A DNA stretch of 44,021 bases from a virus. How positions within the stretch are numbered: position 1 is the first letter of the stretch; every line of letters starts with the position of its first letter. Below are positions 539-43,793 of this stretch, in pieces. The stretch lies in the UHGV virus genome UHGV-0153635; one strand, given 5' to 3'. The translations under genes and the position numbers were made by a program. The notes beneath the pieces were generated by a model, which ran no database searches, had not been told where the DNA came from, and was given only the letters and a program-made list of their open reading frames with translations.

Positions 539-1012
539 TTACTCTCCGTAAGGGTGTGCAATGGCTGGGTTTAGCGTAGTCTTACGCCCCTGCTGCTTCT
601 CCTTACGTTTGATATCCATAGCCATGCGCGTCAGGTCATGTGCTAGCTGCAAGGCTGCGTCAGGTGCAAGGTAGTTGTAACTCGCGAAATCCGGGAGTAT
701 TGAACGTATCTCAACCTCGCCAAACTCATTAGGGAGGATGTCCAAGTACTGTGTCTTACTTGGCACTGTGTAGTAACGCGCACTCTCCGGCGCTGGCGGG
801 AGCGGGTCGTCTTGCTCTACTTGAGAGGCTGCCTTGTACAGATCAAAGCGTTCAGACAGCACCCAACTACCCATGCTAAGGTCTGTCTTAATATAATCAT
901 AACCGCACTCCCGCTCCGTCGCCACTACTTCGTACAACTGCCCCTGCTCAACACCGTTAGCCTCGTTATCCTGATTACCTACAACGATGTCACCCACTTT
1001 AAACTTAGTCAT
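539..1012 (-). CDS. hypothetical early protein (157 aa)
   Basis: ORF track; same strand and tight packing with neighbours. Confidence 0.55.
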   Translation of the reverse strand: MTKFKVGDIVVGNQDNEANGVEQGQLYEVVATERECGYDYIKTDLSMGSWVLSERFDLYKAASQVEQDDPLPPAPESARYYTVPSKTQYLDILPNEFGEVEIRSILPDFASYNYLAPDAALQLAHDLTRMAMDIKRKEKQQGRKTTLNPAIAHPYGE

Positions 1013-1015
1013 ACC

Positions 1016-1246
1016 CTACCCCTCATATTTAGTGTTGAAACAGCCAGCATTAGCAGCAGCCTCAGCTTGTTCACGTTGATATAATTCCCAAAGAGCCTCT
1101 ACATCATAGCTTGTGAGCCACACCGTGTCTACGTTCGGGCTATCCTCCGGCCCCCAGGCTTGCTGGACCTTGTAGATACTCTTGCCCAGCGGCCCCCGGG
1201 GTGGCAGTACCTGGATGTCCAGGTTGTGCTGTGTTTGCTTAGTCAT
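1016..1246 (-). CDS. hypothetical protein (start ambiguous: ATG 1246 or ATG 1312)
   Basis: ORF track 1016..1312; ATG at 1246 has AAGGAG upstream and overlaps the upstream stop by only 8 nt. Confidence 0.4.
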   Translation of the reverse strand: MTKQTQHNLDIQVLPPRGPLGKSIYKVQQAWGPEDSPNVDTVWLTSYDVEALWELYQREQAEAAANAGCFNTKYEG

Positions 1247-1454
1247 GCTTAGGCATCTCCTTACCACAGTCCGCGCAGCAGCGCTCGGCCCCCTTTCCTT
1301 TAAACCACTCATGCTGGCACTGCTGCCTCAGAAGCTCTAGCAGCATCTTGTAAGCCTCTAGCTGGTATTCCTCGTTAAGTGAGATATTCATACGTGCCTT
1401 GTATATCTCCAACCACTTAACCTTCTCCTGCAACGTCTCAGCGTTAACTTGCAT
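1239..1454 (-). CDS. hypothetical protein (71 aa), C-terminal Cys cluster CCADC
   Basis: ORF track; ATG start; overlaps upstream stop. Confidence 0.45.
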   Translation of the reverse strand: MQVNAETLQEKVKWLEIYKARMNISLNEEYQLEAYKMLLELLRQQCQHEWFKGKGAERCCADCGKEMPKHD

Positions 1455-1632
1455 CAGGTAACTCCCCCGTCTTAATGAAATGCTCCAGGATTGGCAGTAA
1501 CTGCTGCGCTTGCTCTTGGCATAGTGAAATTGGATACTTCGTGGCCTCTGTTGTAAGGTCTAACGTTGTAACACTATCGTTATCAATGAGTAGCTGCACA
1601 GGGCCACACAACATTGTCTCTTTAAGCTGCAT
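1444..1632 (-). CDS. hypothetical protein (62 aa)
   Basis: ORF track; ATG start 1632 immediately after the stop of 1622..1948. Confidence 0.45.
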   Translation of the reverse strand: MQLKETMLCGPVQLLIDNDSVTTLDLTTEATKYPISLCQEQAQQLLPILEHFIKTGELPDAS

Positions 1633-1948
1633 AACTAACCCTCCAATCGTAGTAATCTTGTATAGCTTCGTAGAACGCTCTCTGAGCGCCTTTGTACCCT
1701 AAGCGCTGTAGTTGCCCTACCACGTCGAACTTAAGCTCTCCCAGGGCTTCCTGTGCGCTCTCAGGGCTATAGGCGTACCAGCCTTCCAGTAGGCGCAGCC
1801 CCTCGCGGTACTCAAAGCCTGTGCGCCACTGCAAAGGCGCTAGCTTCCGCAGCTGCACCGGGATATCCCGCAGGGACTTCAGGCCCATGCTTCGTTGCTG
1901 CTCCAGCATCTGCCAGAACAGCGCAGCGGTCTCAGCGGGAGTAAGCAT
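1622..1948 (-). CDS. hypothetical early protein (108 aa)
   Basis: ORF track; ATG at 1948 overlaps the stop of the upstream small ORF (TAATG). Confidence 0.55.
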   Translation of the reverse strand: MLTPAETAALFWQMLEQQRSMGLKSLRDIPVQLRKLAPLQWRTGFEYREGLRLLEGWYAYSPESAQEALGELKFDVVGQLQRLGYKGAQRAFYEAIQDYYDWRVSYAA

Positions 1949-2127
1949 TAGATAACCCCTTTAACGCCAAAGCGCTCACAGTACGTGCGCAGGCTCAGCC
2001 CTAGCTGACGTGCCCGTACCTGGTAGTAATGCTTAAGCCCCTGCTTAGCTGCGTGCTCCCGCGCTAAGCCCTCGATAGTTGGCTGCTCCTGCTTAATCAG
2101 GATAGCCTCTGGATTCTGTGCTGTCAT
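1948..2127 (-). CDS. hypothetical small protein (59 aa, below the track's 60-aa cutoff)
   Basis: Manual translation: ATG at 2127..2125 with AAGGAAG RBS; stop overlaps next ATG. Confidence 0.4.
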   Translation of the reverse strand: MTAQNPEAILIKQEQPTIEGLAREHAAKQGLKHYYQVRARQLGLSLRTYCERFGVKGVI

Positions 2128-2253
2128 TTTGTGCTTCCTTCTTCAATAAGTTTCATTGCCCGGCCCCAGGCTGACTCAGCGCTGAAGCCGTTAGCGAGTA
2201 GGTACTGCATGTACTGGTACGCAATGCTCTGGATAGTCATACCGTGCAACCTC

Positions 2254-2414
2254 TAAAGTGCTGTGATAAGTGTATTAGGGTAGCTGGCGCGTAAGCCCTG
2301 CCACGTTGCTGAGAAATAAAAATAAGCCTGGTGGCGAATCTTACGACGGTCCATATCCGGGTACAGCTTAGTGAGGGATTTTGTAATCTTGCTTAAGCGT
2401 TGTTGCTTTGTCAT
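2254..2414 (-). CDS. hypothetical small basic protein (~53 aa)
   Basis: Manual translation; ATG at 2414..2412 lies 9 nt downstream of the AGAGG inside the conserved 12-mer AGAGGTTGCACG. Confidence 0.3.
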
Positions 2415-2438
2415 GTCGTGCAACCTCTGTTTAGTTAG

Positions 2439-2636
2439 TTAGCGGAACAGCTCTAGCAAGCGCAGAATCAACCGCGCTATACCTTCGCAGATATAAGGTA
2501 GCAGCACTATAGCTGCCATGACCAGGAAGAACGTTAGCCAGAACATTTGCGGCCCCCAGTAAGCATCAGGAACAGCGCGAACATCTCTGCTTCGCGCTTG
2601 CGTTCTGTTTCGACTGTCTGATTGTTCATACTGCAC
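2439..2636 (-). CDS. hypothetical small membrane protein (track start is GTG; an internal ATG would give a 35-aa hydrophobic peptide)
   Basis: ORF track; hydrophobic stretch FWLTFFLVMAAIVLLPYI; start uncertain. Confidence 0.35.
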   Translation of the reverse strand: MQYEQSDSRNRTQARSRDVRAVPDAYWGPQMFWLTFFLVMAAIVLLPYICEGIARLILRLLELFR

Positions 2637-2639
2637 CTC

Positions 2640-2870
2640 TCAATAAAATACAACGCAACTGTACTTACCTGCACAGACGGTTATACGCTTATTAGCGTAG
2701 TCCCCTTCCCAGTACCTGGGGTAAGCAACCGGGGAGTAATCCGACCTGGTCACTGGTGTTTTAAAGCAGCTCTGTAAGTGCCTGTAAGCCCTCTCGAACA
2801 ACCCGCCCCGATACACAACCGCTTGAGCCTTGCGTGCCGTCCGAAACTGCTCTAACTCTGCGTAGGTCAT
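2640..2870 (-). CDS. hypothetical protein (~76 aa)
   Basis: ORF track 2640..2903 trimmed to ATG 2870, which has AGGAGA RBS and sits 1 nt after the upstream stop. Confidence 0.45.
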   Translation of the reverse strand: MTYAELEQFRTARKAQAVVYRGGLFERAYRHLQSCFKTPVTRSDYSPVAYPRYWEGDYANKRITVCAGKYSCVVFY

Positions 2871-2871
2871 A

Positions 2872-3114
2872 CTAAATCTCCTGGTCTGATTTACCGTCAA
2901 CAATAAGCAGCACTGGCTTATCAGGATAAGCGCCCTGGAAGCTCTGTAGCAGGCGCTTGCCTAAGCCCTTGCAGCCACCCTCCGGGTCCTCGTAAAGCTC
3001 GTACCCGGGCTGCCCTGTGACTTCTACGGTGCAGTACGGGATAGGTGCTGCTACGTTGCTGCTCAGTAGCAGCACTGCGGACTTAACCGCGATAGTAATT
3101 GTCTGAATCATCAT
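2872..3114 (-). CDS. hypothetical protein (80 aa)
   Basis: ORF track; ATG start; overlaps upstream stop. Confidence 0.5.
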   Translation of the reverse strand: MMIQTITIAVKSAVLLLSSNVAAPIPYCTVEVTGQPGYELYEDPEGGCKGLGKRLLQSFQGAYPDKPVLLIVDGKSDQEI

Positions 3115-3353
3115 TTAACTCCTCTTGGGATACGCCCTTTGCTGGCGTAGTAGCTGTTAATCTTGCTGTCGGTCTTGTTACCGATACTGCGTACGTTCGT
3201 ACTGAAGCCCTGTGGCCTTGCCCGGTCAGTAGCCTCAAAGGTCTGAAGCTTCTTCAGGCGCTTACGCTCCTCAGAGCCTTCTGGAGTCTGCGCAGCAGCT
3301 ACCAGAGCTTTGATTGACTGCTCGCGCTTCTTACAGAGTTTTAAGTAACCCAT
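3111..3353 (-). CDS. hypothetical basic protein (80 aa); first sizeable gene downstream of the early promoter block
   Basis: ORF track; ATG 3353 with AAGGGG RBS; Lys/Arg-rich. Confidence 0.55.
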   Translation of the reverse strand: MGYLKLCKKREQSIKALVAAAQTPEGSEERKRLKKLQTFEATDRARPQGFSTNVRSIGNKTDSKINSYYASKGRIPRGVK

Positions 3354-3699
3354 TTGAATCCCCTTAATTCTGCACCCTCGCTGTGAGGACGCTTAACTAA
3401 GAAACTTCTCTTAGCGAGTCACCCTTTACTGGTTAGACTCTCATCGGTTCTCCCTGCGGGAATGCCCGGACGCACCCTTCGACACATTTTCTTTGTGGCC
3501 TAGTGTCTCGCTCGACCTCCTCAGCAGATTTTTAACGTGACGCTGGGGACCCCACCTGACTTTAGCGGCACTTCACAGTGCGTTTGCTTGCTATCTAAGT
3601 TACTGCGTGTTTCTGTACTTGTCAAGCTCTGTTTCTGAACTTTTGCTCTTAACTCTCTAGCTAGCGCCTTGATAGGCTGGCTAGTTGCCAGCGCTACCG

Positions 3700-3846
3700 T
3701 TATAGCTTAATGCATTTGTGTCTAAGGAACCAGACACGCAGCCTACCTTGCTCCCCCTTGAGGGTTACAAGGCCGTGCTCATTGATTGTATCTACCGTTA
3801 CAATGAAACCAGTAGGGGTTAAGAATGAGTCGTTTTGCTTAATCAT
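3700..3846 (-). CDS. possible small ORF (48 aa) in the early leader region
   Basis: Manual translation; ATG 3846 with AAAGGTG RBS; no homology evidence. Confidence 0.2.
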   Translation of the reverse strand: MIKQNDSFLTPTGFIVTVDTINEHGLVTLKGEQGRLRVWFLRHKCIKL

Positions 3847-3998
3847 GATAGTACACCTTTAGTTAATGAGCCTATCAAGACACTAGCCGGATTGTTAAAG
3901 AGCGCTACTGCCTACTACTTATCGATTATCCAGGCTTCGTATGCCCTGGCGCTACTCCCCGTTACCGGGCGGCTCCTTGCCTCTCGATGTTGTGTTCA

Positions 3999-4026
3999 CT
4001 ATAAACAGGGCACTTCTAAATGTCAA
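3999..4026 (-). promoter_or_regulatory. sigma70-type promoter candidate (TTGACA - 17 bp - TATAGT), reading toward lower coordinates
   Basis: Minus strand reads TTGACAtttagaagtgccctgttTATAGT; hexamers and 17-bp spacing read directly. Confidence 0.5.
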
Positions 4027-4029
4027 ACT

Positions 4030-4515
4030 TTATTTTGCTCTGTGGAACTCTTTTGTTAATGCCGCGCTCACACGGACAGCCGCTGAGTGCGCAACCTCTG
4101 CGCTGCTATAACCCTCCTTGCAATAGCGCTTACCGTCCACCACTACCACGTATTTAAAACCGTCTACAGTTCGCTGCACCCATTTAAAACCGCTGGTATT
4201 ATTAGCCGGACGTTTACTATTGTGCCTGTTCTGCTGAGGTGTTGCAGCTCTCAGATTCTCCACTCTATTATCTTTTGGATTCCCGTTAATGTGGTCAACA
4301 ACCTCTGGGTAGAACCCGTGGTGCAGAGCAAATATAATCCTGTGTATACAGTAGTATGCGCCATCTACACGGATTACTCGGTAACCTTTAGCAATCTGAG
4401 TACCTAATGGTTTATTGGCCTGCCGCCCTTTACCAGGCACCCTCCAGTACAGAACGCCCTTTGTACTTTCATATCGCATGTTGCTACGCACAAAATCTAA
4501 ATCTAAATCCGCCAT
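4030..4515 (-). CDS. HNH homing endonuclease (paralog family member 1)
   Basis: VDHINGNPKDNRVENLR...QQNRHN HNH motif; ATG 4515 with AGAGGG RBS (track start 4551 is further upstream). Confidence 0.8.
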   Translation of the reverse strand: MADLDLDFVRSNMRYESTKGVLYWRVPGKGRQANKPLGTQIAKGYRVIRVDGAYYCIHRIIFALHHGFYPEVVDHINGNPKDNRVENLRAATPQQNRHNSKRPANNTSGFKWVQRTVDGFKYVVVVDGKRYCKEGYSSAEVAHSAAVRVSAALTKEFHRAK

Positions 4516-4634
4516 ATAATACCCTCTTAGTGTGTTGAAAAAGGGAAGCACTGTACAGCTAGTGCCTCCCCTCGGTTAATGTCACTGCCCGCACCGCATT
4601 AGCAGCGCTTTCCCGGTGCAACGTAAGCTATAGG

Positions 4635-4901
4635 TTACTTTAAGGCATTATGCATAGCAGCGCTAGGTACACAATACCGATCAAGAAACTCTGCTGCATC
4701 CGGATAAACCTCCCTGTACTTAAGCTGATTAAACTCTACATAGAACTCAACCAGCCCTAACCCAAGCAAGTGCATCCGCTTAGGCTTACCCAACCCCTCC
4801 CATAGCTGCAAGGATGTATCGTAAGCCGGATAGGAGCCTGCTTGCTTATGCATATAGTCGTAGATGCCCAGTAACCCTTTCTTCAATGCTACAGCATTCA
4901 T
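4635..4901 (-). CDS. hypothetical protein (88 aa)
   Basis: ORF track; ATG 4901 preceded by GAGGA within a duplicated upstream element. Confidence 0.55.
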   Translation of the reverse strand: MNAVALKKGLLGIYDYMHKQAGSYPAYDTSLQLWEGLGKPKRMHLLGLGLVEFYVEFNQLKYREVYPDAAEFLDRYCVPSAAMHNALK

Positions 4902-4903
4902 TT

Positions 4904-4955
4904 AAATGTCCTCAAATTAATTACCTATAGTATATAGCGTAGCGCCTATACGCTA
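4904..4955 (-). repeat. copy 1 of a duplicated ~45-bp upstream element (second copy 5555..5604)
   Basis: Shared core AAATGTCCTCAAATTAATTACC plus TATAG..AGCGTAGCG..TATA with hairpin potential, read on the plus strand in both copies. Confidence 0.5.
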
Positions 4956-5534
4956 AAACGGAAACTCTGAGTCGTCAAAGTGCACTAGCACTGTATCAGC
5001 AGTAGCTACAACCCCCGGTACAGTTCGCATAGCCTCAGCACGTTCCTGCTCTTGCAGTATAGAACGTATCGACATAACCTCAACCAGATACTGCAAGCCC
5101 CGCTCAGCCCTGCTAACAGCCCTCTCCGCACAGTACAGGAAATCCTCCCAGGCAACCGGGCAGTAACGCAGCTTCAGGCTCATAAGGTCCTGTACAGCGC
5201 TCAGGAGCATACCTCTCTGCACTGCATCTAGTCCCTGTATTACATCTATCCGGCTGTACAACTCCCTCTGCTTATCCTGTATAGCAGCAGCATCCAGAGC
5301 CTGCACTGTACCAATTAGCATAGGCTGTAACCCCCTGAGTCTGTCCAGTACTGGATTATCAGAATCCGCTAGCTCAACAGGCATTCCTAAGTGCCAGACC
5401 CTGGCTGTACCGGCATCACTACGAGGCTTATGCTGCTTCCTGGCTGGAGCAGGAACCTCACAGCCTAACTCCGTGTCCCAGTAGTAGTTCTGCTTCTTAC
5501 CGTCTACCCGGCGCTGCTTACGCAGTATCGTCAT
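4953..5534 (-). CDS. hypothetical protein (193 aa); leftmost gene in phage orientation
   Basis: ORF track; ATG 5534 with GAGGAGGG RBS. Confidence 0.55.
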   Translation of the reverse strand: MTILRKQRRVDGKKQNYYWDTELGCEVPAPARKQHKPRSDAGTARVWHLGMPVELADSDNPVLDRLRGLQPMLIGTVQALDAAAIQDKQRELYSRIDVIQGLDAVQRGMLLSAVQDLMSLKLRYCPVAWEDFLYCAERAVSRAERGLQYLVEVMSIRSILQEQERAEAMRTVPGVVATADTVLVHFDDSEFPF

Positions 5535-5554
5535 AGTACCCTCCTCAACATAGT

Positions 5555-5604
5555 AAATGTCCTCAAATTAATTACCCTCCTTATAGAGCGTAGCGAGTAT
5601 AAGG
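5555..5604 (-). repeat. copy 2 of the duplicated ~45-bp upstream element
   Basis: Same core as 4904..4955. Confidence 0.5.
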
Positions 5605-5632
5605 TTAGGTAACTCTGGTTAACTCTGAGATA

Positions 5633-5661
5633 ACTATAGCACTCTGTACCTTAACGTGCAA
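5633..5661 (-). promoter_or_regulatory. sigma70-type promoter candidate (TTGCAC - 17 bp - TATAGT) overlapping one copy of the conserved 12-mer
   Basis: Minus strand reads TTGCACgttaaggtacagagtgcTATAGT about 100 bp upstream of ATG 5534. Confidence 0.35.
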
Positions 5662-5689
5662 CCTCTGTAGTTAAAGCTGTGGCTAATCC

Positions 5690-5945
5690 TGTGCTATCTC
5701 CGGTCTATACCTGTGGAGTCTATGGCTATCCTTAGGCTATCACTGCGCTGCACAGAGAAGACGAAAAGAGGTAAGGCAGCGCCCACCTCCGCCACCACAC
5801 TAAGCACAGCCCAGAGCTATCACTCAGAGCCAACCAGAGCCACGCTAAGGCTATCACAGGGCTATCCCTATGCTATCCCATTGGCTATCCGGTAGAAGCG
5901 CTTAGAGAAGCTCCCAGAGCCTCGTAGAGGCCCCAGGCTATCCGC
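5690..5945. repeat. array of about nine GCTATC-core heptamer repeats (GGCTATC on plus, GATAGCC in phage orientation); candidate genome-terminus region
   Basis: Copies read at about 5693, 5724, 5735, 5816, 5849, 5860, 5870, 5883, 5937 in the only large intergenic gap between the last late gene and the first left-end gene. Confidence 0.55.
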
Positions 5946-6159
5946 TGGTAAGCACAGGCCCCCACCCCACCCCGGCCTTAGTTATGGCTGAGGCACCCCC
6001 TATGGGGGAACTGAGGGGCGTTGAGGGTGAGGGCCAGCCTCGCGTAAGTATAACATTTTTAGGGAGCGAGTATACACCTGCCCCAGTGACAATCCCATAC
6101 TAAGCCTGCCAGCTCTAGCAAGCCCAATGCACTGGCACTGAGCCTGCTCAGGGACCAAC

Positions 6160-7824
6160 CTAGCGCACAACGAACTTACCGAGGCTAATATCGTTAACCA
6201 GGGTAGCTACGATACTAGATAACTGCGTAGTAGTAAGGGTATTAACATCCCCACCGCGTAAGGTGGCGGCATTTGTAAACGGATACGCTTGCGGCTGCTT
6301 AGTATCGAAGAACTGATTCCCCTGCTCGTACCGGTAAGCTGGTGTAGTTGTATAAAGTATTCCGTTCGTAGTTACAGGAACAGAACAATTCACGATGTTT
6401 ACATGCGCAGCGAGACCGGCGCACTCAATAGGACGAGCAACAGTGCCGAACGGCTGAACACCTACCAGACGGTTTATGTTCAGGCTCTGTGCCGCCTGCG
6501 CATACAGATAAGAACTAGGAAGGCCGTTAACACCGCGAATATTCCAGTTATCTACTTCAATATGTCGGGCATTAATAATCTGGCAGATTGCTTGACCGTC
6601 TGCATCAGGATTTGCGCCAACAATACGCACATTCTTAATAGTGATGTCGGAAGTAGCTGTTGTGTTCGCCCCACAGTTAATCATAACAGCTTTAGAACCA
6701 GATTGTGTGCAGTGGATTGTCAACCCGTCAAACTCAATATCACCTAGATTTACTGTGTGAGAGGAGCCGGCCTGGCGTAAAAAGAACACAGCCCAATCCG
6801 TGTGGTTGGATATTAAGATATTACTAAAGCGCAGTCGTGTGACTTCTACCGGATAGAATCTGCATAAAATCCCCTGAGAGCAGTTTCGGATGAAGATGTT
6901 GTCGTAAGTGACATCACGTGAACCCTCAATAGCAATACCTGCATTACAACTTTCAATGTATAACCCGGTCACGCTGCCGTTGGAGAAGTTCGCGCGGAGG
7001 CCATGTGATTCACAGTTCTTGATGGTTACGCCGCTGATGTTTACACGCGTAATTGCAGTACCCCCACCAACGCCAGCCCCTAAATCGTCAGACTGAAGGC
7101 GCAACCCATTACCGCCGGAGCCATTAATGCTGACATCGTGAATCATCACGTTAAGTGTGCGACCTGGTTTGGATGAATCCACAAACACAGAAGATGCCCA
7201 AGTTGTTTGGGTGCGTACATGATGAATGTGCGCTTCGGTGGCATTACCAACAACAATCGCCATACCCTGCCGGTTACTTCCGTCTGGATTCTGTATTTGT
7301 CCGCGACCGCAGTCATGAGAATAAAGATTATCAGCAATTACCCAGCGTCCGTGCTCCATGGCTACGTTATTCTGCCACGCTCCCTGTAACTCGCACCCTG
7401 AAAGCTCAAGAGTACCAGCGGATTGCATAGCCAGCCCAACCCCTGGGGTAAAGGACGCATCCTGTCGATAAAAATCAAACAGGAAATTTCCAACGATACG
7501 AATATCATAGGGGGTGTAATCAAACTCCTGATTTGCTTCGTTCCAGGTACGAGGTGAACGCAACACAAACTGGCGAGAGTCTACGATTACTTTAGGTAGT
7601 TGCGTACGTATCCTTACATCTGTTGGGATAATAAATAACCCCTCTAAAGTTACCGGGGTGTAGGCCACCTCTATATTACCACCCGTAGATAGTGCCGCCT
7701 GTAATTCAGAGTCACTACGAACAACCTTCCAACCACTGAGTAGTCCGTCCAGCGCCGCGCCTACTGTAGTATCATTATAATCCACCTGGTATGCATCTAC
7801 GTGGATGTTTTCAACAAGGGCCAT
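6160..7824 (-). CDS. tailspike protein, right-handed beta-helix (pectate-lyase-like) polysaccharide depolymerase candidate
   Basis: 554 aa with recurring beta-helix-like motifs (IKNCESHG, IESCNAGIAIEGS, IRNCSQGI, IVNCSVP) and Gly/Asn/Ser/Thr-rich content; ATG 7824 with AAGGAG RBS; last gene of the late operon. Confidence 0.65.
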   Translation of the reverse strand: MALVENIHVDAYQVDYNDTTVGAALDGLLSGWKVVRSDSELQAALSTGGNIEVAYTPVTLEGLFIIPTDVRIRTQLPKVIVDSRQFVLRSPRTWNEANQEFDYTPYDIRIVGNFLFDFYRQDASFTPGVGLAMQSAGTLELSGCELQGAWQNNVAMEHGRWVIADNLYSHDCGRGQIQNPDGSNRQGMAIVVGNATEAHIHHVRTQTTWASSVFVDSSKPGRTLNVMIHDVSINGSGGNGLRLQSDDLGAGVGGGTAITRVNISGVTIKNCESHGLRANFSNGSVTGLYIESCNAGIAIEGSRDVTYDNIFIRNCSQGILCRFYPVEVTRLRFSNILISNHTDWAVFFLRQAGSSHTVNLGDIEFDGLTIHCTQSGSKAVMINCGANTTATSDITIKNVRIVGANPDADGQAICQIINARHIEVDNWNIRGVNGLPSSYLYAQAAQSLNINRLVGVQPFGTVARPIECAGLAAHVNIVNCSVPVTTNGILYTTTPAYRYEQGNQFFDTKQPQAYPFTNAATLRGGDVNTLTTTQLSSIVATLVNDISLGKFVVR

Positions 7825-7833
7825 ACTTACTCC

Positions 7834-8376
7834 TTACTTGGGCAGGGCTGCTACAGCTTCCTGCACTGATTTAAATTCATTACCGATAGCCTTGCTCTGC
7901 CATAAGCGGCGCTTCCATAAGCCGTAGCAGACCTTGTTACCTTTGATGCTGCAATCGTACTTCTTACCGTTCAAGGTAATGTACTTCCATTGCAGAACCG
8001 CCTGCCCGGCTGCGCGGTAATCCCCTTGCTTTAGCTTACGCTTAGCTGCGCTGTTTGAGAATCCAGAGACGCCTACGTTGTAGGCCATATCCAGGCTGCC
8101 CAGCAGAACCACGTCAGGAAGCGACTCAGGAAGCCCTACAAGCGCCTGTGCGTGCTCCCCCGCTGATTGTATCAGTTGCTTCTGACAATCGCTTAGAGAG
8201 CGTTTCTGGCCCATCTGTACGCCTTTAGTCTCACCGTAGCAGATGGTAGGTACTCCGGCGCTGTCTCTGTATGCGGTGCTGCTATAACCTTCGTTGTTCT
8301 GGATAACGGCGGTGATACCGCCGCCCAGAAGAGACGCCCCGGCAAGGGCACCTACAATCTTATTTCTTAAACTCAT
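7834..8376 (-). CDS. SAR endolysin (T4-lysozyme-type muramidase)
   Basis: Catalytic E-x8-D-x5-T (NEGYSSTAYRDSAGVPT); N-terminal Gly/Ala-rich weakly hydrophobic segment IVGALAGASLLGGGITAV typical of a signal-anchor-release domain; ATG 8376 chosen over GTG 8388. Confidence 0.8.
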   Translation of the reverse strand: MSLRNKIVGALAGASLLGGGITAVIQNNEGYSSTAYRDSAGVPTICYGETKGVQMGQKRSLSDCQKQLIQSAGEHAQALVGLPESLPDVVLLGSLDMAYNVGVSGFSNSAAKRKLKQGDYRAAGQAVLQWKYITLNGKKYDCSIKGNKVCYGLWKRRLWQSKAIGNEFKSVQEAVAALPK

Positions 8377-8608
8377 AGAATGGGACACCTTTTCGTACAG
8401 CCTCTTCCTGTAGCTTCAGGCGCTTGTGGCTGATATAAGCATTCCATGCAGCGGTAAGGATAGCGCAGATAGTCGCAGTGATGAAACTGATAGCGCTCCA
8501 GTTCCAGGACATAACCTCTGCTAACCAACCGCCGCTCGTAGCTACGCCCGTAGCCATTACCCCTGCCCGAGTAGCCAGGTCAGCGGGTACATCAGAGAGT
8601 CGAATCAT
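8360..8608 (-). CDS. holin, two-TMD pinholin-like
   Basis: Two hydrophobic segments (Gly/Ala/Thr-rich TMD1, then WSAISFITATICAILTAAW) and a charged C-terminus; directly upstream of the SAR endolysin; ATG 8608 with AAGGA RBS. Confidence 0.55.
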   Translation of the reverse strand: MIRLSDVPADLATRAGVMATGVATSGGWLAEVMSWNWSAISFITATICAILTAAWNAYISHKRLKLQEEAVRKGVPFYEFKK

Positions 8609-9005
8609 CAACCTTATCCTTACCGCGAGAGAATCTGCGGAACAGTAGCACAATCACCAGAATCAGAATCGGGATGGCTGCGCCTACTGCTGCTGCTAAA
8701 ATTAAGCTACTGCTGTCATTATTAACTACCTGTAGTTTATCAGCGGTGATAGTCCCGGTGCTAATAGTCTGGACTTGTTTTTTACTGGATGTATCCAGAG
8801 CACCTACGGTAGAATCTTGAATGTCTGTTTTATTGGTGGTGCTGGTGTCCACCTTGTTATTGAGGCCGACAGTTTGCTTGGTGTTCTCGGCCCCCACCTG
8901 AGCAGACACATCCGGCTTAGAGCCGATGAGTCCAGTCAGGGCAGAGGTCGCTGAGCAACCAGAGAGCATAACTGCCAGCAGTAACCCAGCGACCAGGTTA
9001 CGCAT
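8592..9005 (-). CDS. unimolecular spanin (u-spanin) candidate: outer-membrane lipoprotein signal plus C-terminal TMD
   Basis: N-terminal signal with lipobox L-S-G-C; Ser/Thr/Val-rich middle; C-terminal hydrophobic helix LILAAAVGAAIPILILVIVLLF followed by RRFSRGK. Confidence 0.55.
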   Translation of the reverse strand: MRNLVAGLLLAVMLSGCSATSALTGLIGSKPDVSAQVGAENTKQTVGLNNKVDTSTTNKTDIQDSTVGALDTSSKKQVQTISTGTITADKLQVVNNDSSSLILAAAVGAAIPILILVIVLLFRRFSRGKDKVDDSTL

Positions 9006-9193
9006 TATGCAGGCAGGGTGTAGCCAGCAGCTTTAATAGCAGCCAGGGCAGGGGTCATGAGCGTATCAAACGCAGGACCACTGGATGCCATAGACTGTGG
9101 TTGCGTCTTCAACTGGTACATAGCCTTAGCTACGATATTGAGCTGACGCAGAAGCTCCTGCTGTACTGCTTCAGTTTGTGCTGCAATTGCCAT
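9005..9193 (-). CDS. hypothetical protein (62 aa)
   Basis: ORF track; TAATG-type coupling on both sides. Confidence 0.45.
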   Translation of the reverse strand: MAIAAQTEAVQQELLRQLNIVAKAMYQLKTQPQSMASSGPAFDTLMTPALAAIKAAGYTLPA

Positions 9194-11044
9194 TTAGTAC
9201 CTTCCTTTTCTTCTAGTTAAACCCCGGTCAATCCGGGCCTGTGTACCACGGCTGCGCGGGGCAACCATACTTTGCTTCCAGTCCATAGGGTTATCCATGA
9301 ACTTACGAGCTTGCTTCTGCTGTTCCTTCTCAGCAGATACCTTCTCGTCCTCAACCAGGAAGCCGTTGAGTTCTGCTACGAGCATAGCTACTGCGTCGGC
9401 ACGGTCGTCCTTTGCTAAGCTACCACGGTCGTAGGTAATGCTTTGGAGCTGTTGGAACGCGCTATATAACCAGCGCTTATCGCGGCTATAGGCCATGCAG
9501 CTCTGAATGTCGTCTGTAAGCGCCCTAGAATGCACTACAAGGCGATGCCTGCGCGTCACTGGGGAGATGGTATCGATGATACGCCTCTCCTTCTGTGAGG
9601 TGTTGTAGCCCCCTCTAACGCCTATACCGGGAATCTTACGCTCGCGCAGTCGGTTCATGAACAGCATCTCTACTGTACCATGCCCCATGTTGCTCTCGAT
9701 GAACAGGTCCGAGATACCCAGCTCAATAGCCAAGTCAATGAGCTTGTCGATGTTCTCGGTGCTGATACCTCCCTGGAACCCGCCTACAGAGAACAGGTGC
9801 AAGTACGAGTTCGCTGCCCCGCCCGCTGCATAAGACACCTCATCCCCACCACAACCAGCAGGGTCAATCACCATGAGCTTGTGCTGGTACGGCAGCATCA
9901 GCTCACCATAGCTAGCTGGCTGGTACAGCAACTGCCCACGGATACCTTCGTGTTCCTCCGTATAGAGGTAGCGCTTGTCCGCAATATAGCTTAGACGGTC
10001 CGGGGCTGCATCATGCGAACCCGAGTAGACCATGCAATCGCTGAGCTTAATCCTTGTTCTCATTGCGTCAGACATAGTAGTGTCGAGCATGTACTGCAAC
10101 TGGAAGCCCTCTGGACCAAAGTCCAGCTCCTTCTCAATCAGAGCATCCTCGTCGTAACGCCCCTTGTCTGCGCACTCCCCTAAGGTTCCGTCTAATCCGA
10201 ATCCGGTACGTTTATACCCGCGCTCAATAAGCTCACAGATATAAGGAGCAAGTGTATCGCCATAACGTTCCTGCATTTCCTCGTTTGGTATACGACCAGG
10301 CCATACGCGCACTTCAAAGCCACGCCCCGGCAAGGTCTTGTAGATACTATCCTTAGTCTGAGGTGTTCCCAGATACAGCGTATCCCCGTGCGTACAGATA
10401 GCGGCGAAGTCCTTGGATATCATGAGCAACTGCTCACGCATCGTCTGGGTCAGGCCATTCTTCGTAGTCTCAATATCATCCGGGATAAGCAGGTCCGCAC
10501 GCTTACCCTGCAACTGCGCAGTAATACCTACGCACGCAATGCTAGCGGACTTATCCAGAGGCTTCAGGTCGCAGTGCACGTCATAACCCTCGTAAGAGGT
10601 GCGGTCGCCACGGGCCGGGTCAGCCTTGAGGTAGCACAGCAAAGGCCACGTTTCAATCATACGAATGACCAGCGTAGCCACCTCAGACGCCTGCTTCTCA
10701 CCACCAGATACAATCAGGATACGACAGCTCTGGTCCTGTATCAGACGCCACACCGCATACAGTGCAGCCAGGGTAGACTTAGCCTCACCACGCTGAGCAG
10801 CGACCATGCGCTTGCGCGGACCTTTCTGCATGAACTCTGCTATATCGGCCTGCATCTCCGTAAGGTTAAATCCGAGGAACTTCATACCTAAGTATGCGAA
10901 CTCCCGGAAATCCTTCAGAGTCACAGCCATCATCAGCGCTACTTCCTCACGCTGGTCCTTCGGGATAGTTCTTGGGCTATCATTCATTACCGTTGTACGA
11001 GCACTGATGAGCTTGAGTCTGCTCAGTGTAGTTTGGCTTATCAT
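9194..11044 (-). CDS. terminase large subunit (T7 gp19-like)
   Basis: 616 aa, size and position after the small subunit; global resemblance to T7-type terminases. Confidence 0.85.
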   Translation of the reverse strand: MISQTTLSRLKLISARTTVMNDSPRTIPKDQREEVALMMAVTLKDFREFAYLGMKFLGFNLTEMQADIAEFMQKGPRKRMVAAQRGEAKSTLAALYAVWRLIQDQSCRILIVSGGEKQASEVATLVIRMIETWPLLCYLKADPARGDRTSYEGYDVHCDLKPLDKSASIACVGITAQLQGKRADLLIPDDIETTKNGLTQTMREQLLMISKDFAAICTHGDTLYLGTPQTKDSIYKTLPGRGFEVRVWPGRIPNEEMQERYGDTLAPYICELIERGYKRTGFGLDGTLGECADKGRYDEDALIEKELDFGPEGFQLQYMLDTTMSDAMRTRIKLSDCMVYSGSHDAAPDRLSYIADKRYLYTEEHEGIRGQLLYQPASYGELMLPYQHKLMVIDPAGCGGDEVSYAAGGAANSYLHLFSVGGFQGGISTENIDKLIDLAIELGISDLFIESNMGHGTVEMLFMNRLRERKIPGIGVRGGYNTSQKERRIIDTISPVTRRHRLVVHSRALTDDIQSCMAYSRDKRWLYSAFQQLQSITYDRGSLAKDDRADAVAMLVAELNGFLVEDEKVSAEKEQQKQARKFMDNPMDWKQSMVAPRSRGTQARIDRGLTRRKGRY

Positions 11045-11045
11045 C

Positions 11046-11345
11046 TTAAATAATCCCTGCTAAATCATCCTCTGGGTCTGCCCCGGCCTGGGCTAATAGC
11101 TCCTCAGCCTTGGCTTTACGCTTGGCTGCTAGCTCATCCTCGAATACATCCCGCAGCTCCTGCATCTCCGCAGAGTCTGCATCTGCCGTGATGTCATTGT
11201 CCTTGAGGAATTTCGCTATCACGGATTTATCCGCCGCAGGTAAAGGAATCTCCTCCTCCCCCGCCTGCTTGAGTTCGCTAATTAGCGCCTCAGTAAACAT
11301 CCTGTGAAGTTCGCTGAGGCGGCTCTTGGTTGCCGCCTTTGCCAT
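11046..11345 (-). CDS. terminase small subunit (T7 gp18-like)
   Basis: ATG 11345..11343 overlaps the tail-fiber stop (TAATG); acidic ~99-aa product; track ORF 11046..11519 trimmed to this internal Met. Confidence 0.55.
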   Translation of the reverse strand: MAKAATKSRLSELHRMFTEALISELKQAGEEEIPLPAADKSVIAKFLKDNDITADADSAEMQELRDVFEDELAAKRKAKAEELLAQAGADPEDDLAGII

Positions 11346-34460: not shown

Positions 34461-35385
34461 TACCCTGCTCCAGAATATAGGTTCGGTACTGCTTGTGATA
34501 GTCCCTGAGCTGGGTTAACCAGCTCCTGTATTCTGGAGTAGTTACCAAAGACATCAGGTACTCATACGCTGAATCCTGTTCGTGCCTTCTCAGCCAGAGT
34601 GCTTCTGCTTCCGCCAGTACATCCTGCCCTATGGCTGCGTAGGCTCCTAGGACACGCTCTGCGGCCTCCTCTGCTGAGGCAATAGGGTTGATTACCTCGA
34701 AGGCTTTCGTAGCCCCACAGAGCTTCCCATTGAGCCTGAGGATGCCTTTGATGTTGTCTGCTGCATCACCAGCCAGTAACTGCGCGAAGAAGAACTTTGT
34801 TCCCTGCCCGACTATTGGGAATGAGTGTGATTCGTCCCACGCGATGTAGCCATACGGGTCAGATACTCCCTCCAAGGTATGTCCTGCTGGCATCTCAAGT
34901 CTGGCGTATGGTGATAATCGAAGGTCCTTATCGCCGGAGCTGATGATACAGCGTTCCCTAAAGCGATATGAATCCATAACGATAAGGTCGTCCGCTTCAT
35001 ATTCATAGCTCCCCAGCACCTCTATACCGTGCTGACTGTACTCATTAGGATTGCTCAGCAGGTGCCGCTTCAGCGGCTGCTTGAGAGGTAGCTCCGGGCG
35101 CGCAGTACGTTGCGCCTGGTAAGGTCGTACAGTCGGTAGCAGGTATCTACCGCACTTAGCACAACCAGTAGGAGTAAGATACACCAGACACTCTTTGACG
35201 TTAGCATAGAAACATTGCTCCAATACCCATGTGTAGAACCTGCGTATGGCCGTATCTAAGCGCTTGCAGGTTGCAGCCGCAGCATACACCCCGAAGTCGC
35301 CATCCAGCAGCAGAATCTTGTCTGATACAGCAGGGGCCTGCAACTGCTCAGGCAGGCCCGATAAGTCGATGCCCCGTATCTGCAT
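34426..35385 (-). CDS. 5'-3' exonuclease (T7 gp6 / FEN family)
   Basis: KILLLDGDFGVYAAAA and CIISSGDKDLRLSP parallel T7 gp6 motifs. Confidence 0.85.
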   Translation of the reverse strand: MQIRGIDLSGLPEQLQAPAVSDKILLLDGDFGVYAAAATCKRLDTAIRRFYTWVLEQCFYANVKECLVYLTPTGCAKCGRYLLPTVRPYQAQRTARPELPLKQPLKRHLLSNPNEYSQHGIEVLGSYEYEADDLIVMDSYRFRERCIISSGDKDLRLSPYARLEMPAGHTLEGVSDPYGYIAWDESHSFPIVGQGTKFFFAQLLAGDAADNIKGILRLNGKLCGATKAFEVINPIASAEEAAERVLGAYAAIGQDVLAEAEALWLRRHEQDSAYEYLMSLVTTPEYRSWLTQLRDYHKQYRTYILEQGNEETINEADAP

Positions 35386-35585
35386 TAATCCCCCGGCTTT
35401 TGCAGTTCATACAGGCGTTGAGCCTCTTTAATACCGCAGGTCCAGGCTGACAAGCAGGCGCCACCCGCCCCCTTACCGGAAATAATGCGCGCACCAGCTG
35501 CCATTAACAGGACTCCTGGCACAATAAGCACCACTGCTGGGATCGTGAATAAGTATTTCAGCATATTAGTACCCCGCAGCTTCAA
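35385..35585 (-). CDS. small membrane protein (66 aa)
   Basis: ORF track; hydrophobic segment FTIPAVVLIVPGVLLMAAGA. Confidence 0.4.
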   Translation of the reverse strand: MKLRGTNMLKYLFTIPAVVLIVPGVLLMAAGARIISGKGAGGACLSAWTCGIKEAQRLYELQKPGD

Positions 35586-43409: not shown

Positions 43410-43793
43410 TTACTCCTTCTCGTTTAAGTATTCCTGCATCTTCTTCTCCAGAACCTTCAGAGAACTTCCGGCCAGCTTCTGAACATCCGGGTTTTTAGCT
43501 ACCGCCTCAACGCCACTTGCTGCTGCCATGGTGTAAATAGTCTTGGTAGTGGGCACAAAGGGGTACATCAGCAACAGCACTGCCCATACTACAGCCGCAT
43601 AGCGCACTACTTTAAAAGAGGATTTACGCGCGGACTGTTCTGCCTCATAGCTGTTTGTTAGCATGTCCGCTAGCATTAGTATAATCATAGGGGAGAGTAC
43701 CAAAGCAAACCCTCCCAGCACCAACACAATCTCCAGCGTTGACTTAACACCGCCAACAGTACCTGCCAAGTAGATAAAAGTAGCAAAGTTCAT
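43410..43793 (-). CDS. membrane protein (127 aa) between primase and helicase
   Basis: ORF track; several hydrophobic helices. Confidence 0.5.
   Translation of the reverse strand: MNFATFIYLAGTVGGVKSTLEIVLVLGGFALVLSPMIILMLADMLTNSYEAEQSARKSSFKVVRYAAVVWAVLLLMYPFVPTTKTIYTMAAASGVEAVAKNPDVQKLAGSSLKVLEKKMQEYLNEKE

What the first reader, a model, noticed from the sequence alone, without database searches (positions are those of the whole stretch)
7834..9005. Lysis cassette reads as u-spanin + pinholin-like holin + SAR endolysin
8592-9005 encodes a protein with a lipobox (LSGC) signal at the N-terminus and a single C-terminal TMD, the architecture of unimolecular spanins (as in phage T1 gp11) rather than an Rz/Rz1 pair. 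The holin has a Gly/Ala-rich first TMD, and the endolysin has a weakly hydrophobic SAR N-terminus with an E-x8-D-x5-T triad. All three overlap tightly. The u-spanin is the less common outer-membrane disruption solution.
Basis: partly seen in the sequence, partly recalled or inferred. Interest (0 to 1): 0.5.

Follow-up and report, generated by a model that had tools for sequence, protein, structure and literature searches.

The report
Known phage lysis cassette with u-spanin

Summary
The window is a reverse-complemented, permuted genome of a Koutsourovirus (KP34-like Autographiviridae), about 91% identical in DNA to Enterobacter phage phiKDA1.

The minus strand carries, in order: large terminase, a 62-aa ORF, a 137-aa lipoprotein with a C-terminal TMD (8592-9005), an 82-aa holin (8360-8608), a 180-aa lysozyme (7834-8376) and the tailspike.

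- **u-spanin.** The protein is 100% identical to phiKDA1 gp59. Kongari et al. 2018 list that protein in the T1 gp11 unimolecular-spanin family. It is 39% identical to T1 gp11 itself (E 3e-24) and has the same LSGC lipobox.
- **Endolysin.** It aligns with the solved SAR endolysin R21 across both the N-terminal domain and the E-x8-D-x5-T triad.
- **Holin.** It has a Gly/Ala/Ser/Thr-rich first hydrophobic segment. Its close relatives fall in the phage 21 pinholin Pfam family, while this copy scores just below the cut-off.
- **No rival spanin.** No other lipobox ORF lies on the coding strand, so there is no Rz/Rz1 pair.

Eriksson et al. 2015 described this same spanin-holin-endolysin cassette for KP34-like phages. 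The pinholin and SAR assignments remain in silico. Interest is low.

The parts
8592..9005 (-). Unimolecular spanin (u-spanin), 137 aa, T1 gp11 family
   Evidence: phrog_1804 at E 8e-50. 39% identical to T1 gp11, E 3e-24. 100% identical to phiKDA1 gp59. Annotated 'U-spanin' in Enterobacter phage Entb_48.
8955..9005 (-). Lipoprotein signal peptide with lipobox LSGC; the acylated Cys17 is encoded at 8955-8957
   Evidence: Read directly from the sequence. G16 and C17 are invariant in the eight-phage alignment. T1 gp11 has the same LSGC (PMC6139136).
8709..8954 (-). Periplasmic domain of the u-spanin, 82 aa, no Cys, with the conserved motif AQVGAENTKQ
   Evidence: The AF2 model was low confidence here. 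JPred figures for the phiKDA1 u-spanin, whose sequence shows is identical, are 27% strand and 9% helix (PMC6139136 supplement).
8640..8708 (-). C-terminal transmembrane anchor of the u-spanin (aa 100-122), followed by the basic cytoplasmic tail encoded at 8595-8639
   Evidence: Best 19-aa KD mean 3.02. AF2 helix 98-129 is the only part of the model with pLDDT of 60-80. A hydrophobic stretch is present in all eight homologues.
8360..8608 (-). Holin, 82 aa, probable pinholin. TMD1 is encoded at 8510-8566 and TMD2 at 8432-8494
   Evidence: phrog_20 holin at E 2e-12. PF04971 at 21 bits, below the cut-off of 26. 11 of 14 sequences in the family alignment hit PF04971, and relatives carry it as their precomputed family.
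7834..8376 (-). SAR-type endolysin, 180 aa, phage lysozyme (Pfam PF00959). The SAR segment is encoded at 8302-8358 and the catalytic E-x8-D-x5-T triad at 8245-8292
   Evidence: PF00959 at 75 bits. phrog_7 endolysin. R21 (3hde) at E 1.4e-11, with the alignment starting at residue 3. 29% identical to T1 gp12 including the N-terminus. 96.7% identical to the phiKDA1 endolysin.
9005..9193 (-). Context only: a conserved 62-aa ORF of unknown function. Its stop overlaps the u-spanin start (TAATG)
   Evidence: phrog_7375, function unknown. No TMD. Found in 262 phage records, nearly all from Klebsiella and other enterobacterial hosts, the same host range as the holin's 267 records.

Best explanation
This is the late-operon lysis cassette of a Koutsourovirus/KP34-like podophage. 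It is transcribed terminase, orf62, u-spanin, holin, endolysin, tailspike.

Proposed mechanism (inferred from the phage 21 and T1 paradigms, not shown for this phage):
1. The endolysin is exported by Sec and held inactive in the inner membrane by its weakly hydrophobic N-terminal SAR segment.
2. The 82-aa holin accumulates in the inner membrane. At a set time its Gly/Ala-rich first segment leaves the bilayer and the second TMD oligomerises into small holes that collapse the proton-motive force.
3. Depolarisation releases the SAR endolysin into the periplasm, where it refolds and cleaves peptidoglycan using the Glu-Asp-Thr triad.
4. The u-spanin is lipid-anchored in the outer membrane through Cys17 and anchored in the inner membrane by its C-terminal TMD. 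Once the murein meshwork is gone it is free to act, and it disrupts the outer membrane, probably by fusing it with the inner membrane.

What is shown here: the sequence features, the homology and the gene order. What is inferred: membrane topology, SAR release, hole size and fusion.
For: **Identity of the window**
- About 91% nucleotide identity to phiKDA1 and SDFMU_Pec over about 84% of 25 kb.
- Synteny with the phiKDA1 and KP34 cassettes.

**u-spanin**
-.
- T1 gp11 complements a lambda Rz/Rz1 defect, and its LSGC lipobox was tested in that assay (PMC6139136).
- phiKDA1 and KP34 are listed in the T1 gp11 family. All members of that family except J8-65 and Limezero sit in pinholin plus SAR-endolysin cassettes.

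**Endolysin**
-.

**Holin**
-.
- T1 gp13 has the same layout of a G/A/S/T-rich segment followed by a TMD.

**Absence of rivals and operon structure**
- There is no second lipobox ORF on the coding strand.
- phiKDA1 carries only one spanin annotation in its whole genome.
- No promoter-like or terminator-like site lies on the minus strand within the cassette itself (7834-9193). The only minus-strand matches in the scanned 5500-11200 stretch lie inside or downstream of the tailspike gene, and the strongest terminator-like hairpin is at 5767-5790, past its end.

**Prior description**
- The same cassette and reading were published for KP34-like phages (PMC4411677).
Against: - The holin itself scores below Pfam's gathering threshold for the S21 family (21 against 26 bits).
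- Its first segment is so weakly hydrophobic (KD mean 1.01) that the published KP34 annotations call it a one-TMD class III holin.
- No dual-start antiholin motif is visible.
- No SignalP, LipoP or TMHMM run was possible. A signal-peptidase I site (ITA|V) cannot be excluded from sequence alone.
- The AF2 model of the spanin periplasmic domain was uninformative (pLDDT 41-47), so the beta-rich fold is not confirmed here.
- I found no experimental lysis data for the KP34/phiKDA1 clade in the literature searched.
Confidence: 0.88

Rival explanations
1. The holin is a canonical large-hole holin or a single-TMD class III holin, not a pinholin. SAR endolysins can work with either type, as P1 Lyz does.
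For: - The KP34 GenBank note and Eriksson et al. 2015 report one TMD by TMHMM and Phobius.
- Segment 1 has a KD mean of only 1.01 and contains Glu31.
- The PF04971 score is below the cut-off.
- Kongari et al. note that u-spanins occur with both holin-endolysin types.
Against: - A weakly hydrophobic, G/A/S/T-rich first segment that TMHMM misses is what is expected of a pinholin SAR-like TMD1.
- 11 of 14 sequences in the family alignment hit the S21 holin Pfam family.
- The segment is conserved across the family.
- Kongari et al. class the cassettes of the T1 gp11 family as pinholin plus SAR endolysin.
Confidence: 0.2
2. The endolysin N-terminus is a cleavable Sec signal peptide, giving a secreted endolysin rather than a signal-arrest-release anchor.
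For: A basic n-region followed by a hydrophobic core is also the pattern of a signal peptide. A possible -3/-1 site, I-T-A|V, lies at aa 21-24 (read from the sequence). SignalP could not be run.
Against: - The N-terminal segment aligns with the uncleaved SAR domain of R21 in the full-length structure 3hde and with T1 gp12.
- The putative cleavage site is only 5 residues from the catalytic Glu.
- About half of the segment is Gly, Ala, Ser or Thr (48% over the 23-residue stretch that contains it), which is typical of SAR domains.
Confidence: 0.06
3. The 137-aa lipoprotein is not a lysis protein but a surface or exclusion lipoprotein of the kind that blocks receptors, such as T5 Llp or Cor.
For: One source names relatives 'outer membrane lipoprotein SlyB'. 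No direct functional test exists for this clade.
Against: - Clear homology to T1 gp11, which complements lambda Rz/Rz1.
- A C-terminal TMD is not expected in exclusion lipoproteins.
- The gene overlaps the holin gene inside the lysis cassette.
- No other spanin exists in the genome.
Confidence: 0.03

Closest known systems
Enterobacter phage phiKDA1 gp59-gp60-gp61 (Koutsourovirus KDA1, NC_027980)
   Same: Same gene order and the same 17-nt overlaps. The u-spanin is 100% identical, the holin 96.3% and the endolysin 96.7%. The phiKDA1 u-spanin is already catalogued in SpaninDB.
   Different: The window lacks the 288-nt ORF56 that phiKDA1 carries between the terminase and the 62-aa ORF. It also carries a different tailspike downstream.
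Klebsiella phage KP34-like (Drulisvirus) lysis cassette gp54-55-56, described by Eriksson et al. 2015 (PMC4411677)
   Same: Spanin-holin-endolysin order. The u-spanin is 77% identical, the holin 65% and the SAR endolysin 61%.
   Different: The KP34 endolysin is 22 aa longer because of an insertion in its C-terminal half. The host genus differs.
Phage T1 gp13-gp12-gp11 (prototype u-spanin, complements lambda Rz/Rz1)
   Same: - Homologous u-spanin: 39% identity, the same LSGC lipobox, the AQVGAENTKQ motif and a C-terminal TMD.
- Homologous SAR-type lysozyme (29% identity).
- Holin with the same layout of a G/A/S/T-rich segment followed by a TMD.
   Different: The gene order is holin-endolysin-spanin in T1 and spanin-holin-endolysin here. 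T1 is a siphovirus (Drexlerviridae). Holin similarity is marginal, covering 28 aa at E 1e-5.
Phage 21 S21 pinholin / R21 SAR endolysin
   Same: The endolysin aligns with R21 (3hde/3hdf), including the SAR segment and the Glu-Asp-Thr triad. There is no Cys in the SAR segment, so regulation would be of the R21 type and not P1 Lyz disulfide caging. The holin family matches PF04971.
   Different: Phage 21 uses an Rz/Rz1 two-component spanin and a dual-start holin/antiholin (from my own knowledge of that system). No dual start is seen here. The window's holin is below the Pfam cut-off.
phiKMV gp44-gp45-gp46/46.1 (pinholin, SAR endolysin, Rz/Rz1)
   Same: An Autographiviridae lysis cassette downstream of the terminase, with a SAR endolysin and a pinholin (Briers et al. 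2011, as cited in PMC4411677).
   Different: phiKMV has the order holin-endolysin-Rz/Rz1 with a two-component spanin. Here a unimolecular spanin comes first.

Membership tests
T1 gp11-type unimolecular spanin | N-terminal lipoprotein signal with lipobox [LVI][ASTVI][GAS]C | tested here: met
   MRNLVAGLLLAVMLSG|C17, lipobox LSGC. G16 and C17 are invariant in eight homologues. LipoP was not available.
T1 gp11-type unimolecular spanin | Outer-membrane sorting, meaning no Asp at +2 after the lipidated Cys | tested here: met
   Residue +2 is Ser18. The rule itself is established knowledge of Lol sorting.
T1 gp11-type unimolecular spanin | Single C-terminal TMD with a cytoplasmic basic tail | tested here: met
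   aa 100-122, best 19-aa KD mean 3.02, followed by RRFSRGKDK. AF2 helix at 98-129. Present in all aligned homologues.
T1 gp11-type unimolecular spanin | Sequence homology to family members (Kongari threshold: 40% identity over 40% of the length to a member) | tested here: met
   100% identical to phiKDA1 gp59, a listed member. 39% identical to T1 gp11 over 122 aa, E 3e-24. 46% identical to the PaulSarasin u-spanin. phrog_1804 at E 8e-50.
T1 gp11-type unimolecular spanin | No periplasmic cysteine | tested here: met
   No Cys among the 82 periplasmic residues. This is true of all 58 u-spanins in SpaninDB.
T1 gp11-type unimolecular spanin | Periplasmic domain with a short helix followed by four or more beta strands | tested here: inconclusive
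   AF2 with a 12-sequence alignment gave pLDDT 41-47 and no strands. Only a short helix at 20-27 was predicted. Published JPred figures for the phiKDA1 u-spanin, identical in sequence, are 27% strand and 9% helix.
T1 gp11-type unimolecular spanin | Complements a lambda Rz/Rz1 lysis defect | not testable with these tools
   Shown only for T1 gp11 (PMC6139136).
T1 gp11-type unimolecular spanin | No two-component spanin elsewhere in the genome | tested here: met
   The six-frame lipobox scan found only 8592-9005 on the coding strand. phiKDA1 has one spanin annotation in its whole genome.
SAR endolysin (R21 type, phage lysozyme Pfam PF00959) | Phage lysozyme catalytic domain with the E-x8-D/C-x5-T triad | tested here: met
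   PF00959 at 75.2 bits against a cut-off of 22.3. E29, D38 and T44 align with the R21 Glu, Asp and Thr in 3hde and 3hdf.
SAR endolysin (R21 type, phage lysozyme Pfam PF00959) | N-terminal weakly hydrophobic, Gly/Ala/Ser/Thr-rich TMD preceded by basic residues | tested here: met
   R4 and K6, then IVGALAGASLLGGGITAVI (KD mean 1.95 over these 19 residues; 48% G/A/S/T on the 23-residue stretch containing them). The segment aligns with the R21 SAR segment and is conserved in KP34, Nobby_B2 and T1-like homologues.
SAR endolysin (R21 type, phage lysozyme Pfam PF00959) | Uncleaved, membrane-tethered, and released and activated on depolarisation | not testable with these tools
   This needs fractionation and energy-poison experiments. 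SignalP was not available.
Pinholin (S21 type, PF04971) | Two hydrophobic segments, the first SAR-like, with a basic cytoplasmic C-terminus | tested here: met
   Segments at aa 15-33 (58% G/A/S/T, KD 1.01) and aa 39-59 (KD 1.61), with C-terminus SHKRLKLQEEAVRKG.... The pattern is conserved across the family.
Pinholin (S21 type, PF04971) | Membership of Pfam PF04971 (phage P21 holin S) | tested here: inconclusive
   The window protein scores 21 bits against a gathering score of 26, E 3.4e-4. 11 of 14 sequences in the family alignment match at E up to 0.01, the best at 2e-7. The 60-66% identical relatives carry PF04971 as their precomputed family.
Pinholin (S21 type, PF04971) | Paired with a SAR endolysin | tested here: met
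   The adjacent gene, overlapping by 17 nt, encodes the SAR-type lysozyme.
Pinholin (S21 type, PF04971) | Forms small, non-protein-conducting holes; TMD1 leaves the membrane | not testable with these tools
   No experiment on this clade was found in the papers searched.

The most novel reading that the evidence does not exclude
The conserved 62-aa soluble ORF at 9005-9193 (phrog_7375) could be a fourth, unrecognised component or regulator of the spanin-first cassette.
- Its stop overlaps the u-spanin start.
- It occurs in about as many phage records as this holin (262 against 267), with the same enterobacterial host range.

The unusual order (spanin before holin before endolysin, with two 17-nt overlaps) would then reflect translational coupling that sets stoichiometry or timing. 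My evidence neither supports nor excludes this. It rests on adjacency and co-distribution within one phage subfamily, which shared ancestry explains equally well.
Probability: 0.07. Interest if true: 0.4.

Novelty: already known. Interest (0 to 1): 0.08.

Why it matters
It matters little beyond correct annotation.

- The u-spanin protein is already in public records with an identical sequence (phiKDA1 gp59, Salmonella phage KKP 3828) and is catalogued as a T1 gp11-family u-spanin.
- The spanin-holin-endolysin cassette with an inferred pinholin and SAR endolysin was published for KP34-like phages in 2015.
- Several GenBank relatives (SDFMU_Pec, KKP 3828, parts of Entb_48) still label these genes 'hypothetical' or 'transmembrane protein'. 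Confirming the reading has annotation value for them.
- The clade could serve as a second experimental system for the still unresolved mechanism of u-spanins.

Tried and rejected
- **Second spanin system.** Strict and relaxed six-frame lipobox scans and a TMD scan of all ORFs found nothing on the coding strand. The plus-strand hits are antisense to large structural genes and were rejected.
- **AlphaFold2 of the u-spanin.** With the only alignment allowed (12 sequences, 76-99% identical), the mean pLDDT was 50 and the periplasmic domain was unresolved. I ran no fold search because the model is too poor.
- **NCBIfam.** It gave only weak sub-threshold hits: spanin2_3 at 22.8 bits against 80, and a gene-transfer-agent endolysin at 45 bits against 315.
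- **Spurious Pfam hits.** The RIFIN and Stevor hits of the spanin are compositional (TMD plus low complexity) and were rejected.
- **Kongari et al. 2018, J Virol (PMC6206483), on T1 gp11 localisation.** The paper is not held in the library.
- **Holin start.** The TTG 8653 start of the holin ORF was rejected. It has no properly spaced ribosome-binding site and would overlap the spanin gene by 62 nt, and every full-length homologue is 81-83 aa.
- **Endolysin start.** The GTG 8388 start was rejected in favour of ATG 8376, because MSL(R/K) is the conserved N-terminus in phiKDA1, KP34, Nobby_B2 and T1.
- **orf62 as a lysis gene.** Its distribution merely mirrors the phage subfamily, so no conclusion was drawn.
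Full report
**What is there.** All genes in this part of the window lie on the minus strand. In order of transcription they are:
- a 616-aa large terminase (9194-11044);
- a 62-aa ORF (9005-9193);
- a 137-aa ORF (8592-9005);
- an 82-aa ORF (8360-8608, from its ATG);
- a 180-aa ORF (7834-8376, from its ATG; the longest ORF starts at GTG 8388);
- a 554-aa tailspike-like protein (6160-7824).

The junctions are tight. TerL/orf62 is TAAATG and orf62/spanin is TAATG. The spanin/holin overlap is 17 nt and the holin/endolysin overlap is 17 nt. No promoter-like or terminator-like site lies on the minus strand within the cassette itself (7834-9193). The only minus-strand matches in the scanned stretch lie inside or downstream of the tailspike gene, and the strongest terminator-like hairpin is at 5767-5790, past its end. 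The cassette is therefore part of the late operon.

**What the window is.** Megablast places it in the genus Koutsourovirus (Slopekvirinae, Autographiviridae).
- It is 91-93% identical to Enterobacter phages SDFMU_Pec and phiKDA1 over the cassette.
- It is about 91% identical over about 84% of a 25-kb stretch.
- The phiKDA1 RefSeq record annotates the syntenic genes as 'Rz-like spanin; putative RzlA', 'putative transmembrane protein' and 'putative endolysin'.
- Entb_48 annotates 'U-spanin', and SU552A and KP34 annotate spanin, holin and endolysin.
- At the protein level, the window's spanin is 100% identical to phiKDA1 gp59, the holin 96.3%, the endolysin 96.7% and orf62 98.4%.

**The u-spanin.** The sequence shows the following:
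- a lipoprotein signal MRNLVAGLLLAVMLSG|C with lipobox LSGC;
- Ser at +2, which is compatible with Lol transfer to the outer membrane (established rule);
- 82 periplasmic residues without Cys;
- a strongly hydrophobic C-terminal helix (aa 100-122, best 19-aa KD mean 3.02);
- a basic tail.

It matches PHROG 1804 'Rz-like spanin' at E 8e-50. It is 39% identical to T1 gp11 over 122 residues (E 3e-24), including the identical LSGC lipobox and the motif AQVGAENTKQ.

I aligned it with homologues from KP34, Pectobacterium phage Nobby_B2, T1, PaulSarasin, NPat, phiJLA23 and LIMEzero, which are 32-78% identical to it. The lipobox Gly-Cys and the AQ.G..N.K...G motif are invariant. Every sequence ends in a hydrophobic stretch followed by basic residues.

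Kongari et al. 2018 list phiKDA1 and KP34 in the 28-member T1 gp11 family. They report that T1 gp11 complements the lambda Rz/Rz1 defect and that none of the 58 u-spanins has a periplasmic Cys. They also report that all members of that family except J8-65 and Limezero sit in pinholin plus SAR-endolysin cassettes (PMC6139136). Their supplement gives the phiKDA1 protein as 137 aa with an 81-residue periplasmic domain predicted as 27% strand and 9% helix.

My own AF2 run, limited to a shallow alignment, resolved only the signal helix, a short helix at 20-27 and the C-terminal TMD helix (mean pLDDT 50). The beta-rich fold is therefore not independently confirmed.

**No Rz/Rz1 elsewhere.** A strict and a relaxed six-frame scan for lipobox ORFs found only 8592-9005 on the coding strand. 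The other hits are short plus-strand ORFs antisense to structural genes. The fully annotated phiKDA1 genome has a single spanin.

**The endolysin.**
- It matches PF00959 at 75 bits (cut-off 22.3) and PHROG 7.
- Its best solved relatives are the phage 21 SAR endolysin R21, in its full-length inactive form (3hde, E 1.4e-11) and its active form (3hdf), and E. coli RrrD (4zpu).
- The 3hde alignment begins at residue 3. It therefore spans the N-terminal segment, and it places E29, D38 and T44 on the R21 Glu-Asp-Thr triad.
- The N-terminus is MSLRNK followed by IVGALAGASLLGGGITAVI (about half G/A/S/T; KD mean 1.95).
- It contains no Cys, so regulation would be of the R21 refolding type rather than P1 Lyz disulfide caging. 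This is an inference from my own knowledge of those two systems.
- T1 gp12 is 29% identical and shares the MSLKN start. KP34 and Nobby_B2 share it too.
- Whether the segment is uncleaved and releasable cannot be tested here.

**The holin.**
- It matches PHROG 20 holin at E 2e-12.
- The layout is a 14-residue charged N-terminus; segment 1, AGVMATGVATSGGWLAEVM (58% G/A/S/T, KD 1.01); the loop SWNWS; segment 2, AISFITATICAILTAAWNAYI (KD 1.61); and a basic C-terminus.
- The Pfam match to PF04971 'Bacteriophage P21 holin S' is below the cut-off for this protein (21 against 26 bits).
- The 60-66% identical KP34-type relatives carry PF04971 as their precomputed family, and 11 of 14 sequences in the family alignment match it (best E 2e-7).
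- Both segments are conserved across the family. Segment 2 has a conserved S41-xxx-A45-xxx-A49 small-residue face. This is my reading of the alignment, by analogy with the S21 glycine zipper, and is not tested.
- T1 gp13 has the same layout, but its sequence similarity is marginal.
- Published annotations call the KP34 holin a one-TMD class III holin, and then argue from the SAR endolysin that it is a pinholin. The weak first segment explains that discrepancy.
- I saw no dual-start motif.

**Mechanism.** The best-supported model is the phage 21/T1 pathway:
1. The SAR endolysin is exported by Sec and held in the inner membrane.
2. The pinholin triggers and depolarises the membrane.
3. The endolysin is released and degrades the murein.
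4. The u-spanin, which is tethered to both membranes and held in check by the murein meshwork, destroys the outer membrane, probably by membrane fusion.

Steps 1 to 4 are inferred by homology. Kongari et al. state that the mechanism of u-spanins themselves is still unknown.

**Comparison and novelty.** Eriksson et al. 2015 described this cassette for 'Kp34likevirus'. They reported the order spanin-holin-endolysin, a u-spanin in place of the phiKMV Rz/Rz1 pair, a SAR endolysin and an inferred pinholin (PMC4411677). Because the window's spanin is identical to a catalogued one, the finding is already known. u-spanins are indeed the minority solution: 58 of 677 genomes, against 528 with two-component spanins. 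Within this clade and among T1-like phages, however, they are the rule. tblastn found relatives in 1171 phage records.

**Verdict.** Novelty: already known. Interest is low.

Noticed in passing
window 9005-9193 (-): A conserved 62-aa soluble ORF (phrog_7375, function unknown). Its start overlaps the terminase stop (TAAATG) and its stop overlaps the u-spanin start (TAATG). tblastn finds it in 262 phage records, against 267 for the holin, with the same enterobacterial host range. One record calls it a 'putative structural protein'.
   Followed up: partly
window ~9193/9194, compared with L002 3122-3409 (phiKDA1 ORF56): phiKDA1 has an extra 288-nt gene, similar to a LIMElight protein, between the large terminase and the 62-aa ORF. 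The window lacks it, and there the terminase stop abuts the 62-aa ORF.
   Followed up: no
window 7834-8376 (-), around aa 135-140: The Koutsourovirus endolysin is 180 aa. The KP34 and Pectobacterium phage Nobby_B2 endolysins are about 200 aa because of a roughly 22-residue insertion before the conserved 'DCS...NKVC.GLW.RR' region. Close relatives also diverge here at the DNA level: KKP 3828 matches the holin and spanin region of the query but not the endolysin gene at megablast sensitivity, which suggests mosaicism.
   Followed up: partly
window 6160-7824 (-): For the phiKDA1-type Enterobacter phages (phiKDA1, SDFMU_Pec, SDFMU_EhYP), megablast matches stop at about 7817-7832, the endolysin/tailspike boundary; Entb_48's match stops earlier, inside the endolysin gene. 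Salmonella phage KKP 3828's joined match (82% of the query, 8 pieces) starts at 6001, so it may extend across the tailspike region. This looks like an exchanged receptor-binding module.
   Followed up: no
window 5500-6160 and 539-5534 (-): The window is a permuted genome. The last late gene (tailspike) and a terminator-like hairpin at 5767-5790 are followed, at lower coordinates, by early-region small ORFs. The physical genome ends, which in phiKDA1 are 267-bp direct terminal repeats, should therefore lie near 5.6-6.1 kb.
   Followed up: no
window 43410-43793 (-) and 35385-35585 (-): Small predicted membrane proteins on the coding strand: 127 aa with two hydrophobic segments, and 66 aa with an N-terminal TMD. 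Their function is unknown. Neither has a lipobox partner, so they are not spanin candidates.
   Followed up: partly
L012 1501-1752 (KP34 gp55) and PMC4411677: Public annotation of the KP34-type holin as a 'one transmembrane domain, class III' holin conflicts with the two conserved hydrophobic segments seen in the family alignment. The first segment is too weakly hydrophobic for TMHMM.
   Followed up: partly
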